Shown here one piece after another: positions 40,654 to 46,680 of a stretch of 64,000 bases of DNA. The stretch lies in assembly GCF_009914755.1 (NCBI RefSeq), contig NC_060926.1, one strand, 5' to 3'. Position numbers and translations under genes: made by a program. The first letter of the stretch is position 1, and each line of letters begins with the position of its first letter. Source of the DNA: the human T2T-CHM13v2.0 reference genome, Homo sapiens. The notes beneath the pieces were generated by a model. The model did not search any database. It saw nothing but the letters and a program-made list of their open reading frames with translations, and was not told the DNA's origin.

Positions 40654-41397
40654 TTTTAATTTTTTATTATACTTTAAGTTCTAGGGTACATGTGCACAAC
40701 GTGCAGATTTGTTACATATGTATACATGCGCCGTATTGGTGTGCTGCACCCATTAACTCGTCATTTACATTAGGTGTATCTCCTAATGCTATCCCTCCCC
40801 CCTCCCCCCACCCCACGACAGGCCCAGGTGTGTGATGTTCCCCTTCCTGTGTCCAAGTGTTCTCATTGTTCAATTCCCACCTATGAGTGAGAACATGTGG
40901 TGTTTGGTTTTTTGTCCTTGCGATAGTTTGCTGAGAATGATGGTTTCCAGCTTCATCCATGTCCCTACAAAGGACATGAACTCATCATTTTTTATGGCTG
41001 CATAGTATTCCATGGTGTATATGTGCCACATTTTCTTAATCCAGTCTATCACTGATGCACATTTGGACTGGTTCCAAGTCTTTGCTATTGTGAATAGTGC
41101 CACAATAAACATACGTGTGCATGTGTCTTTATAGCAGCATGACTTATAATCCTTTGGGTATATACCCAGTAATGGGATTGCTGAGTCAAATGGTATTTCT
41201 AGTCCTAGATCCTTGAGGAATTGCCACACTGTCTTCCACAATGGTTGAACTAGTTTGCAGTCCCATCAGTGTGCTGTATTCAGGAGACCCATCTCACGTG
41301 CAGAGACATACATAGGCTAAAAATAAAGGGATGGAGGAAGATCCACCAAGCAAATGGAAAACAAAAAAAAGGCACGGGTTGCAATCCTAGTCTCTGA
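40654..41397 (-). mobile_element. L1PA4/5-like 5'-truncated and 5'-inverted insertion
   Basis: 3' end on minus (40654-41265) joined to a plus-strand ORF2 endonuclease fragment (41262-41397); 15-nt TSD tataacttttctctt (40639-40653; 41398-41412). Confidence 0.95.
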
Positions 41398-42319
41398 TAT
41401 AACTTTTCTCTTATACAAAGACAACCCCTAAACTCTATGAAAAGAGAGTTCAATTTTTTTTCTAATGCATTTGCTTATGCGGGATGTGTGGGAGACTGAA
41501 CCTAACTGGGATTCTGGCAGGAAGGAAGAAATGAATTTAAAACAGACTGGTCGTGGGGAGCTGTATTTCATCTGTTCCCATACTTTTAGGTCTAGCATAG
41601 TGGCTGCTGCACAGCAGTTGCAAAGTACATGTTCACTGGGTAAATGAGTTCATCTCAATGACACTCCTAGGGCTCTGGGTATCAGCATCCTGCACTTCCT
41701 CTCCAGTGTAAAAGAGTGTTATGAAAACAAAGTAGATTTCTCTGAGGTCAATAGAATGGATTGAAGAAAGCACCATGCTAGGGCCCATAAAATGCTGTTG
41801 ATTGCCAATAGCTTTACCCCAGTGTCACTTCCTGCCCAAGCAATGCAGATGGGATGTTAGTTGTCTGATGTCCTCATACCATGATTTTGCTGGAAAGTTG
41901 AAAGATTTTCTTTTCATAAAGATTTATTTGTACAACAAATTCTTTCTTTGTAGACAATCGTGCTACCATATATTCTTATTTTTTCTCTCTCTTTTCTTCT
42001 CTCATTAAAACAGTGTAAAAAGCATTGACTTTTGTTTCAACCTTACCAGCCACCAAGTCTTCCATTCTCCCTGTGTTTAGTTACTGTGGAAGGTGAACAC
42101 TTTTAATCTCATTTCTGTGTCTTTGTTCCTTTGCTTGGAACCAATGCCCCATATCCTAAATACCTGCAGTACATCTGTTGGGATGAATCCAGTTCAAATA
42201 CTGTAATACTGCATGTCATAGAAAGAACAAATTGTTTGCTACTGTGTGCTATCATATGACTGTTTTGCAAGTCTATACATTGGACAGTAGATATTTGCTT
42301 AAGGTTGTTTCTCCTTGTC

Positions 42320-42425
42320 CTTAAAAGCAGGGAAATATATTACTCTTATTTGTACTCTTGGAATGATGTGTGGCACCGAATAGGTTCTCAAAGATACTTG
42401 CTAAATAAATAAATAAATAAATACT
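42320..42425 (+). mobile_element. L2 3' terminus
   Basis: gtggcaccgaataggttctcaaagatacttgctaaataaat(aaat)n. Confidence 0.6.
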
Positions 42426-42732
42426 TACTAAAATATAATGCAGCATGGAAACTAGAAATGGCCTCAAAGCCTGAAAGAAAGTGATTCAGTCTAATAGACA
42501 TACAAAAACCTAATGAATAAAAATGTAATGCATAGCACAATTATGTGACTTTTTAAGCAAATGGGGTAGTGCTTAAAATACTGGGCAGACGTGTGGAACT
42601 TCTGTGGTCTGATCATAATTGTGACCACTTTTCTTATTTTGAATTTAGCAGAATCTCTCAATTAAAACAAACTTTGTGAATCTTGGATAATTGTAAATGA
42701 AACATTTGGTTCTTATCAAAAAGGTATGGTTG

Positions 42733-43037
42733 GGCTGGGTGTGGTGGCTCACACCTGTAATCTCAGCACTTTGGGAGGCCGAGATGGGTGGATCATCTGA
42801 GGTCAGGAGTTCAAGACCAGCCTGGCCAGCATGGTGAAACCTCGTCTCTACTAAAAATACAAAAACAGGATGTGGTGGCAGATGCCTGTAATCCCAGCTA
42901 CTTGGAAGGCTGAGGCAGGAGAATAGCTTGAACCCTGGAGGTGGAGGTTGCAGTGAGCTCAGATCGCACCACTGTACTCCAGCCTGAGTGACAGAGTGAG
43001 ACTCTGTCTCAAAAAAAAAAAAAAAAAAAAAAAAAAA
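42733..43037 (+). mobile_element. AluSx/Sz
   Basis: gatcatctgaggtcaggagttcaagaccagcctggcc; long A tail. Confidence 0.95.
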
Positions 43038-45004
43038 GGAAAGGATTCATTCCAGTCACACGTAGAAATGATCAAGTACCTGATTCTTCTTGGTTGCTGA
43101 GTGTGAACCAGCTGGGGACCTTGATTTCAACACGTTGCTTTTATAAAAGTGCTTATTTTGATTGGTTTAAATATTGACTTTTAGAGTTCATGACCTTCAT
43201 TCAGTTTTATTAGCAAGCATTTTTTGTTACTCTTTCTAGCCAATGGATGCCTCTCACCAACAACCAGGAAGGAATTTGCATTGATTCCTTCACATTGTGT
43301 TTTCAAGAACCAGCCCATCAGGACAGCTCTGCATTTATGTGCTTATCATTATGCATGAAGGAAGGGCATGTGCACTAGAAGAAGACCCTTTTGTAGGTGA
43401 GTGAATATTTGAAAAGGTGATATTTATATTGATACTTAGAATCACAAGAACAACATGCTTATTTCGTTAAAGTCATCACGCATTTATTGAAGTCTTCCTA
43501 ATATGGTTATGCTCTACTGCTACTGCATAAGCATGAGTATGTGCTTGTGTGTTCACATGTGGCAAACGGTTATATAAAGAGAGTAACACATTTTCTTTTT
43601 TATTCTTTAGATTACACTGAGTAAGAAATATAATAGGGACATGAATGTGACCCAGGTGTCATACTGAACCCTGGTATTTGAATTATACTGTCTTCAACTA
43701 TTCCACTATTCCTCCAGTTGTCCCCACTATTTTCTTCCTCCCCTGTCAACAAGTAGTCTTTCCTAGGTGGGATTAAGATAATAGAAAATGTTTTATCTTC
43801 TACCACATCCCTTCAACTTGAAGTAATGTTGTCTATGTAAAAAATAATTACATGTATTTTAAAGGCTTAAATAATCTGAAATTTTTAAAAAGCTAAAACA
43901 CTGAATATTTCATGTGATTGCACTTGATCCTAAACTATAATTCTTTCCTTGTTTTGGTAAGACAACATTCCATTGTGAACTCATGTAGCAAGCTTGTCAG
44001 TAAATCATGTGGAGATTTTATGGATTTAACAGACTTCACAGATAAATAGAAAAACAATGGACTGTTTTAGAAATTTAAAGCAAAATGACAATGTGTGTCT
44101 TGCCTAGACTCTATGGATATCAATTGTATTTTTAATTTGTAGTTGTTTTTCCAAATTGGTATAACTTGCTTGAAATATCAAAATTTCTTATTAGTTTATT
44201 CAGATATATATACATATTTTACCTAGAAGACCTTATCATTTAAACTGAGAAAATAAAATGGTAAGCTGTTTTATTCTACAAAGTTTAAACAGAAACAACT
44301 TTATTAGGGTTAATAGCACAATTCTGCTACATTCTGCTATTTTCATCCCAAATCCATCCTCCCATTGGTATTGTTTCAATTACTTCTTCCTTGTGTATAA
44401 AATGTTTAAATTTTTATATAGTAAATTGTGATCATGTTTGAGTACGTCTTTGGTGTTGGCACTGAGCAGAATTGAATATAACAGCTTTTGGTACCAAAAA
44501 AAAAATACATTGTTCTGCTCTTGCAAGGATATTCCTAATTTGGCATTACAAGCTAATGAAGGTCTGTATTGGCAATAAAGAACACATGTTCACTTCAAGA
44601 AGAGCAGGAAGCAACACTGAAAAATTGGGTCATATTTTGACCAACTGCCTTATTCTTTGCTCTGAGTCTTTACAAAGTCTTGGTGTCTGCTTCATCACCA
44701 CCCTCTTCCCTTCACCAAATAACCAAAACTGATAATTTGGAAAGTAACAAGTAAAAGGAAAAATTCTCACTCCACATTGTGCTAGGTTAGTCAGCACATT
44801 GTTGTTGATTGCAAATGACAGAAACCCTAGACTTACCTGGCTTATGAAAAAAGGGAATTTATTGACTCATATCATGAAAAATGTTAAGTATTCAAGAATG
44901 ACCTAGAAATCCTAGGCAGAGCAATCAGGCAATAGAAAGAAATAAAAGGCATCCAGGTGAGAAGAGAGGAAGTCAAACTCTTTCTCTTCACAGATGATAT
45001 AATT

Positions 45005-45050
45005 CTATATCTATATCTATATCTATGTCTATATCTATATCTATATCTAT
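45005..45050. repeat. (CTATAT)n microsatellite inside L1
   Basis: Direct inspection. Confidence 0.9.
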
Positions 45051-46120
45051 AAAACCACATGGTCTCTGCCCAAAGGCTCCTAGAACTGACAAACAACTTC
45101 AGCAATGTTTCAGGACACAAAGTCAGTATACAAAATTCAGTAGCATTTCTATACAGCAGTAATGTCCAAGTTGAGAGCCAAATCAAGAATGTAATCCCAT
45201 TCACAGTAGCCACAAAAAGAATACAATGTCTAGGAATACAGTTAACCAGGGAGGTGAAAGATCTCTACAATGAAAATTACAAAACACTGCTGTAAGAAAT
45301 CAGACACAACGTAAACAAATGGAAAAATGTTCCATGCTCATGGATAGGAAGAATTAATATTGTTTAAATTGTCATACTACCCAAAGCAATGTGCAGATTC
45401 AATGCTGTTTTTATCAAACTACCAACGACATTTTTTACAGAATTAGAAAACATATTCTAAAATTCATATGGAAAAAAAAGCCTGAATAGCCAAGACAATC
45501 CTAAGCAAAAAGAAGAAAGCTGGAGGCACCATACTACCCAACTTCAAACTATGCTACAAGGCTATAGTTACCAAAACAGCATGGCAACAGTACAAAAACA
45601 GACACACAAACAAACCAACTGAACAGGTTAGAGAACCCAGAATGAAAACCACACACATAATGATCTGATCTTTGACAAAGTCAATGATAACAAGCAATGG
45701 GGAAAAAGGCTTCCTATTTAATAAATGGTGCTGGGATAACTGGCTATCAATATGCAAAGGTTAAAGCTGGAACACTTTCTTATACCATATAGATTTAAAT
45801 GTAAAATCAAAAACTTTAAAAACCCTAGAAGAAAACCTAGAAAATGCCACTCCAGACATTGGCCCTGGCAAAGATTTCATGATGAAGACTCTAAAAGCAA
45901 TTGAAACAAAAACAAAAATTGACAAATGGACTCTAATTAAACTAAAGAGCATCTGCACAGCAAAATAAATTATCAAAAGAATAAATAGACAACCTATAGA
46001 ATAGGAGAAAATATTTGTAAGTAATGCATCTGACAAAGGTATAATATTCAGAATATCTATAAGGAGCTTAAATAAGCGAGAAACAACCCCACTTTAAAAA
46101 CATGCAAAAGACATGAGCAG

Positions 46121-46680
46121 ATACCATTTGACCCAGCCATCCCATTACTGGGTATATACCCGAAGGAATATAAATCATGCTGCTATAAAGACACATGCCC
46201 ACGTATGTTTATTGCGGCACTATTCACAATAGCAAAGACTTGGAACCAACCCAAATGTCCAACAATGATAGACTGGATTAAGAAAATATGGCACAAATAC
46301 ACCATGGAATACTATACAGCCATAAAAAAGGATGAGTTCATGTCCTTTGTAGGGACATGGATGAAGCTGGAAACCATCATTCTCAGCAAACTATCGCAAG
46401 GACAAAAAACCAAACACCACATGTTCTCACTCATAGGTGGGAATTGAACAATGAGAACACTTGGACACAGGAAGGGGAACATCACACACCTGGGCCTGTT
46501 GTGGAGTGGGGGGAGGGGGAAGGGATAGCATTAGGAGATATATCTAATGTAAATGACGAGTTAATTGGTGCAGCACACCAACATGGCACATGTATACATA
46601 TGTAACAAACCTGCATGTTGTGCACATGTACCCTAGAACTTAAAGTATAATAAAAAATATATATATATATATATATATAA
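46121..46680 (+). mobile_element. L1PA4/5-like 3' fragment nested in the older L1
   Basis: ORF2 C-terminus (MFIAALFTIAKTWNQPKCP...HMFSLIGGN), 3'UTR, A/(TA)n tail. Confidence 0.93.

What the first reader, a model, noticed from the sequence alone, without database searches (positions are those of the whole stretch)
40818..46499. Probable gene-conversion tract between two inverted L1PA copies 5 kb apart
Seen: 40818-40986 (minus) and 46331-46499 (plus) are identical over 169 nt, whereas the flanks differ at 16 of 210 nt and about 11 of 155 nt (manual count, ~7%). The tract shares apparently derived variants: cacacctgggcc (consensus as I recall ccggggcc) and caccacatg. At 7% divergence a given 169-nt perfect run has probability of order 1e-5 to 1e-6. 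Inference: non-allelic gene conversion, or the crossover scar of an inversion of the 5.3-kb interval. The ~540-bp inverted pair could also form dsRNA.
Basis: partly seen in the sequence, partly recalled or inferred. Interest (0 to 1): 0.7.

Follow-up and report, generated by a model that had tools for sequence, protein, structure and literature searches.

The report
Likely gene conversion between LINE-1 neighbours
Two old, dead LINE-1 fragments lying back to back 5 kb apart share a perfectly identical 169-base stretch, likely because one was overwritten from the other during DNA repair; this is a known, ordinary process, and chance is not excluded.

Summary
The arms 40659-41196(-) and 46121-46658(+) align over 538 nt without gaps, with 27 differences and none in 40818-40986 / 46331-46499. 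Both shared variants are derived, but both sit at CpG columns: one is common (8 of 22 related copies) and one rare (109 of 6,662 genome copies, 1.6%). Otherwise the tract is simply the majority sequence. A single inversion is refuted: copy A keeps a matched 15-bp target-site duplication, the older L1 around copy B is collinear, and lineage markers on both sides stay in phase. A full-likelihood test favours conversion over independent decay by only 2- to 16-fold (about 5 with site-specific rates). A small genome-wide neighbour test (3 pairs against 0.7 expected) suggests that nearby L1 copies do exchange sequence. Verdict: non-crossover gene conversion about 65%, probably within the last few million years; chance about 29%. 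It is a new example of a described process, with no annotated gene in the window. The dsRNA idea has no support. Interest is low.

The parts
40639..40653 (.). Target-site duplication of copy A, copy at the L1 3' (tail) end, 15 bp
   Evidence: exact match to 41398-41412
40654..41268 (-). Copy A: 3' part of a primate L1 (ORF2 from about codon 1144 to the stop, 3' UTR, short A tail); older sub-lineage markers in its flanks
   Evidence: markers
41270..41398 (+). 5'-inverted piece of copy A: ORF2 endonuclease region (match to codons 39-72; the piece runs to about codon 80), twin-priming-like structure
   Evidence: E 1e-17 to LINE-1 ORF2p; twin priming is inference
41398..41412 (.). Target-site duplication of copy A, copy at the 5' end
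40818..40986 (-). Identical tract in copy A (last 39 codons of ORF2 including the stop, plus 52 nt of 3' UTR); shared variants at 40898 and 40826
46121..46658 (+). Copy B: 5'-truncated primate L1 (ORF2 codons 1168-1275, 3' UTR, short A tail followed by an AT run); younger sub-lineage markers; no TSD
   Evidence: markers
46331..46499 (+). Identical tract in copy B; shared variants at 46419 (common CpG decay) and 46491 (rare transversion at a CpG)
44906..46120 (+). Older L1 (about 75% identical to the young copies), part upstream of the point where B inserted
46680..47227 (+). Same older L1, part downstream of B; resumes 8-9 nt further along, so the host is collinear with a small target-site deletion

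Best explanation
Two L1 3'-end fragments lying back to back 4.9 kb apart are identical over 169 nt, likely because a non-crossover repair event copied about 130-170 nt from one into the other. Shown: the tract, its two shared derived bases, different source lineages for A and B, and unexchanged flanks. Inferred: a break or stalled fork in one copy was repaired by strand invasion of the inverted neighbour (synthesis-dependent strand annealing or a template switch), without crossover. If so, the event is recent: median 0.15 of the elements' age (quartiles 0.06-0.30), about 3 My (1-6 My) on a roughly 20-My age. The direction is not resolved, with a weak lean to B as donor. No function is expected.
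For: A run >=169 nt is rare for unlinked copies: 8e-4, 3e-4 to 2.8e-3, 0 of 595 real pairs. The tract is not intrinsically conserved: non-CpG change 1.9% against 1.9% and 2.8% in the flanks. Both copies carry an allele found in 109 of 6,662 genome copies, and its carriers span several lineages, so it is not a lineage marker. Of 40 scored candidates (327 found) only these two match all 169 nt. Bayes factor 5-16, 3.4-6.3 with site-specific rates; unlinked pairs reach 10 in 4 of 990. Neighbour test without this pair: 3 rare-allele-sharing pairs within 50 kb against 0.71 expected (P 0.035). Conversion between L1PA copies is described (PMC5829575, passages); mean tract 250 bp (10.1101/135152, passages).
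Against: Both copies show 0 of 161 non-CpG changes in the tract where about 3 are expected per copy, so the donor must happen to be unusually clean; this is also what a chance match of two near-majority copies looks like. The one rare allele lies 9 nt from the tract end and at a CpG. The other shared allele is in 8 of 22 copies. One unlinked pair has a 185-nt run (1 of 1,081), and A shares 153 nt with an unlinked copy. The Bayes factor falls to 2.1-3.9 if conversion slows with divergence. The neighbour test is small: one search gave 0 pairs among 100 listed, the result within 10 kb is 1 against 0.11 (P 0.10), and the chance figure is scaled from chr1 alone. No outgroup or second human haplotype was available.
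Confidence: 0.65

Rival explanations
1. Chance: both copies kept the majority sequence across the tract and independently took the same two changes at CpG columns.
For: Apart from two CpG-column changes the tract equals the majority state. Four of 21 related copies have only 2 differences there. Long runs occur in unlinked pairs (185 nt; 151-153 nt). The likelihood ratio against chance is only about 2-16. With a prior of 5% per neighbour pair, chance would be the better reading.
Against: It needs a run of probability about 1e-3 and a shared 1.6% allele. Run >=169 with a shared rare allele and >=22 mismatches arose in 6 of 600,000 null simulations. Neighbours share rare alleles more than expected.
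Confidence: 0.29
2. Inversion toggling: the 5-kb interval flipped an even number of times by recombination between the arms, and the tract is conversion left by those crossovers.
For: Inverted L1PA pairs of this spacing mediate polymorphic inversions (PMC9675761: LINE-1 inversions median 5,487 bp, one between back-to-back L1PA5 copies). Conversion beside an L1PA7-flanked inversion is described (PMC5829575). An even number of flips restores TSDs.
Against: It needs two or more crossovers in 540 bp at 95% identity. Not among the 4 chr2 loci of Lee 2008 or the 15 inversions of Balachandran 2022.
Confidence: 0.04
3. Crossover scar of one inversion of the interval.
For: The geometry is that of retrotransposon recombination-mediated inversion.
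Against: A keeps a matched 15-bp TSD and the host L1 around B is collinear; by the criterion of Lee 2008 this is the ancestral state. A crossover would require a parent joining B's 5' markers to A's 3' marker, seen in 0 of 18 and 2 of 53 copies.
Confidence: 0.005
4. B is a DNA-level copy of A made during break repair (which would explain its missing TSD), and the tract is the part that has not yet diverged.
For: B has no TSD and an 8-9 nt target deletion; 7 nt after B's tail match the start of A's TSD.
Against: 5 of 25 non-CpG differences fall on columns that separate source lineages, against 1.2 expected (P 0.007), so A and B came from different source elements. Six of the 7 matching nt are explained by the host L1.
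Confidence: 0.01
5. Assembly or polishing artefact that homogenised the two copies.
For: Only one assembly could be examined.
Against: The arms are 95% identical and 540 bp long, with unique flanks, well inside a long read (general knowledge, not tested).
Confidence: 0.01

Closest known systems
Non-allelic gene conversion between neighbouring retrotransposons (Alu: Aleshin and Zhi 2010, not held, known through PMC8230782 and PMC6598467; L1PA3 example in Frith and Khan 2018, PMC5829575)
   Same: Partial homogenisation of two copies under 10 kb apart, at identity in the range said to favour conversion (89-100%), with a tract of the usual size (mean 250 bp, CI 63-1000; 10.1101/135152).
   Different: Published cases rest on orthologues, reads or three or more diagnostic bases. 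Here there is one genome, one rare shared base and no diagnostic base inside the tract.
Retrotransposon recombination-mediated inversion (Lee 2008, PMC2603318; L1 inversions in Balachandran 2022, PMC9675761)
   Same: Oppositely oriented L1PA pair about 5 kb apart.
   Different: The elements are not chimeric: TSD matched, host collinear, markers in phase. Identity is 95% against a median of 97.1% for the L1 inversions of Balachandran 2022.
5'-inverted (twin-priming) L1 insertion, for copy A
   Same: Inverted 5' piece, intact 3' end, TSD on both sides.
   Different: About 3.2 kb of L1 is missing between the two pieces. That this is larger than usual is recalled, not checked.

Membership tests
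Non-allelic gene conversion tract | Homologous donor and acceptor at different loci | tested here: met
   538-nt arms, 95% identical, 4,924 nt apart
Non-allelic gene conversion tract | Local identity beyond what independent divergence gives | tested here: met
   p about 1e-3 per pair; 0 of 595 and 1 of 1,081 unlinked pairs
Non-allelic gene conversion tract | Shared derived bases not explained by subfamily descent or recurrent mutation | tested here: inconclusive
   two shared bases, both at CpG columns: 8 of 22 and 109 of 6,662; Bayes factor 2-16
Non-allelic gene conversion tract | Flanks not exchanged (non-crossover) | tested here: met
   TSD, host collinearity, marker phase
Non-allelic gene conversion tract | One-way transfer with an identifiable donor | tested here: inconclusive
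   only column 46405 leans to B (allele in 11 of 12 B-like and 3 of 7 A-like copies)
Non-allelic gene conversion tract | Pre-conversion state seen in orthologues or other haplotypes | not testable with these tools
   the genome tool holds no relatives of this genome
Retrotransposon recombination-mediated inversion | Two elements of one family in opposite orientation | tested here: met
Retrotransposon recombination-mediated inversion | Chimeric elements with unmatched TSDs | tested here: not met
   15-bp TSD of A matched; no swapped match longer than 7 nt
Retrotransposon recombination-mediated inversion | Interval inverted relative to the pre-insertion state | tested here: not met
   older L1 around B collinear; outgroups not available
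L1PA4/L1PA5 subfamily | LINE-1 ORF2 C-terminus and 3' UTR | tested here: met
   ORF2p codons 1168-1275, E 7.5e-66
L1PA4/L1PA5 subfamily | Subfamily-diagnostic bases against curated consensus sequences | tested here: inconclusive
   no repeat library here. By eye the copies lie between one labelled L1PA5 and four labelled L1PA2/L1PA3 3' ends in a supplement; about 2-3% non-CpG change
Inverted-repeat dsRNA source | One transcript spanning both arms | not testable with these tools
   no gene annotated in the window (hub annotation); no expression data

The most novel reading that the evidence does not exclude
The conversion happened on the human lineage, may still be polymorphic, and is one of many: short, dead L1PA fragments at about 95% identity exchange tracts with neighbours within 50 kb often enough (about 5% of sites, range 1-14%, from my small test) to bias dating of L1 copies and to create clustered variants.
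Probability: 0.25. Interest if true: 0.45.

Novelty: new member of a known kind. Interest (0 to 1): 0.2.

Why it matters
If true, it is one more example of conversion between nearby repeats, in neutral intergenic DNA, and matters little by itself. The method is more useful than the locus: counting neighbours that share rare L1 alleles in one complete genome would give a conversion rate for L1, as was done for Alu. My searches returned single L1 examples but no such survey; most subscription papers were not searched.

Tried and rejected
1. 2. A coarse simulation summary gave a likelihood ratio of 150-220. I gave it less weight than the full likelihood because it ignores that the run is only just 169 nt, that the rare base sits at the edge and that the donor is unusually clean. 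3. Single inversion: rejected. 4. B as a DNA copy of A: rejected. 5. The rare base as a lineage marker: rejected, its carriers span several lineages. 6. The tract as a conserved part of L1: rejected. 7. A recombination-hotspot 13-mer (motif recalled) lies in A at 40797-40809, 9 nt from the tract, and not in B, but 39 of 88 panel copies carry it, so it carries little weight. 8. No special fold at the 3' boundary (z -0.02; G-quadruplexes are not modelled). 9. One search was meant as a rare-allele control, but the allele proved common (1,235 hits), so it was left out of the neighbour count; by eye none of its 100 listed places lie within 50 kb of another. 10. Catalogue checks found no record of this locus: Lee 2008 Table S1 (4 of 4 chr2 rows), Balachandran 2022 inversion sheet (15 of 15 rows). 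The supplement of PMC12350158 was cut and its index shows no inversion table. bioRxiv supplements were closed, and large inversion catalogues were not seen. 11. Loci of the search with copy A were not obtained, so no panel chosen for likeness to A was analysed.
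Full report
Observation. The two arms, A (40659-41196, minus) and B (46121-46658, plus), align over 538 nt without gaps and differ at 27 sites. The tract covers the last 39 codons of ORF2, stop included, and 52 nt of 3' UTR.

Anatomy. A is an L1 3' part (40654-41268) joined to an inverted piece of the ORF2 endonuclease region (41270-41398; match to codons 39-72), bounded by a 15-bp TSD at 40639-40653 and 41398-41412. B starts at ORF2 codon 1168, ends in a short A tail and an AT run, and has no TSD. 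It sits in an older L1 whose two halves are collinear with 8-9 nt missing. A and B come from different source lineages: 5 of 25 non-CpG differences fall on lineage-separating columns, against 1.2 expected (haplotypes). The label L1PA4/5 is plausible by eye against labelled examples but was not tested with a repeat library.

Is it more than chance? Random placement gives 329 of 400,000. I built two panels from the same genome. The first has 55 copies chosen for likeness to B or the tract (60 loci less 3 self and 2 duplicates). The second has 58 copies taken in chromosome-1 order from the 100 places listed; I dropped the first 24, which include what I took to be duplicated regions, and one tandem neighbour, and did not fetch the last 17. 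Runs >=169 nt occurred in 1 of 1,081 and 0 of 595 pairs. In the 22 position-ordered copies of the same cluster, non-CpG change is 1.9% in the tract and 1.9% and 2.8% in the flanks, so the tract is not protected. Null simulation gives 3e-4 to 2.8e-3 at fitted rates and up to 1.2e-2 at 0.8x rates without lineage differences.

Shared variants. In the tract A and B differ from the majority of their cluster at two columns only, both CpG, and at 0 of 161 other columns. 46419A is in 8 of 22 related copies. 46491T is in 109 of 6,662 genome copies of the surrounding 24-mer, spread over several lineages. Among 40 scored candidates of 327, only A and B match all 169 nt; the next has 168.

Weighing conversion against chance. 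I compared one conversion event (random start, geometric length, uniform time) with independent decay. The Bayes factor is 5-16 for mean tracts of 100-500 nt, 4-12 over 30-500 nt, 3.4-6.3 with the observed rates at the two shared sites, and 2.1-3.9 if conversion slows with age. Unlinked pairs reach 10 in 4 of 990. A coarser summary gave 150-220, which I discount because it drops information that counts against conversion. The verdict therefore depends on how often neighbours convert.

Prior. I counted neighbours that share a rare allele, leaving this pair out. One search (100 of 109 listed) gave two pairs on chr4, 15.5 and 43 kb apart. One search (86 of 86) gave one inverted pair on chr17, 6.2 kb apart. 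One search (100 of 138) gave none. One search was dropped because its allele is common. The total is 3 within 50 kb against 0.71 expected (P 0.035) and 1 within 10 kb against 0.11 (P 0.10); pairs were read by eye and the expectation is scaled from chr1. This implies a sharing rate near 5% per site (1-14%) and a posterior of 0.68-0.80 at Bayes factors of 7-8, somewhat lower at 5. The published rate for young gene duplicates (2.5e-7 per site per generation, for synonymous divergence up to 5%; 10.1101/135152, passages) would give a similar or higher prior, but the rate falls with divergence. The detectable Alu rate of 98 in about 54,000 loci (PMC8230782, parts 1-2 of 4 read) is a floor that would leave chance far ahead. 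I settle on 0.65.

Mechanism. A single inversion would leave chimeric elements with unmatched TSDs (PMC2603318, passages). A's TSD is matched, B's host is collinear, and the marker combination a crossover needs is seen in 0 of 18 and 2 of 53 copies. So any exchange was non-crossover, or an even number of flips. The inferred path is a break or stalled fork in one copy, invasion of the inverted neighbour, copying of about 130-170 nt (start uncertain, end near 46495) and return. Given conversion, the time is 0.15 of the elements' age (quartiles 0.06-0.30, 95% below about 0.7). With about 20 My for L1PA5 (PMC5237266, passages) that is about 3 My. The donor is unresolved. The G-rich stretch and a recalled hotspot 13-mer beside the tract are common to many L1 copies (39 of 88) and are only a speculative trigger.

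Known context. Conversion between L1PA3 copies, and beside an L1PA7-flanked inversion, is described (PMC5829575, passages). Elevated conversion between Alus under 10 kb apart is reported second-hand (PMC6598467, passages; PMC8230782); the original paper was not held. This locus is not among the 4 chr2 rows of Lee 2008 or the 15 inversions of PMC9675761 (passages and supplement rows). The supplement of PMC12350158 was cut and its index lists no inversion table. Catalogues I could not see may list it. PMC1920257 (passages) defines non-classical insertions by 3' truncation and no tail; B has a tail, so it does not fit.

Verdict. A real identical tract; likely a recent non-crossover conversion between two dead L1 fragments (0.65), chance 0.29, even-numbered inversion 0.04. 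It is a new instance of a known process with no sign of function. Interest 0.2.

Noticed in passing
L047 (G000:C4:108132892) and L101 (G000:C4:108117436): Two direct L1 copies 15.5 kb apart, with unrelated 3' flanks, share five or six uncommon alleles spread over about 320 nt while differing at 28 of 537 sites. Bayes factor 60-1,900 for an old, long conversion; a shared minor source element is not excluded. A stronger candidate than the finding itself.
   Followed up: partly
L121/L122 (G000:C17:9904143 + and 9910323 -): Inverted L1 pair 6.2 kb apart from different lineages sharing a 1.3% allele inside a 33-nt identical run; no long tract; Bayes factor 3-5.5.
   Followed up: partly
L045 (G000:C4:157994891) and L102 (G000:C4:158038212): Direct copies 43 kb apart, different clusters, sharing two rare alleles amid many differences. 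The Bayes factor of 31-72 is unreliable because the model assumes one cluster.
   Followed up: partly
window 41268-41398: Copy A's inverted piece comes from the start of ORF2 while the rest begins near codon 1144, so about 3.2 kb of L1 is missing at the inversion junction.
   Followed up: partly
window 46113-46121 and 46655-46690: Copy B has no TSD, an 8-9 nt target deletion, a short 5' microhomology and an AT run in place of a long A tail.
   Followed up: partly
window 40729-40735 and 41052-41068: Copy A carries clustered differences: three in 7 nt and five in 17 nt. Two of the second cluster are lineage markers; the rest are unexplained.
   Followed up: no
window 48017-48085: Two copies of a 34-nt unit, 85% alike, 35 nt apart.
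   Followed up: no
G000:C1:20920589 and 20921256: Two L1 3'-UTR motif matches 667 nt apart on one strand, perhaps a tandem duplication of an L1 end.
   Followed up: no
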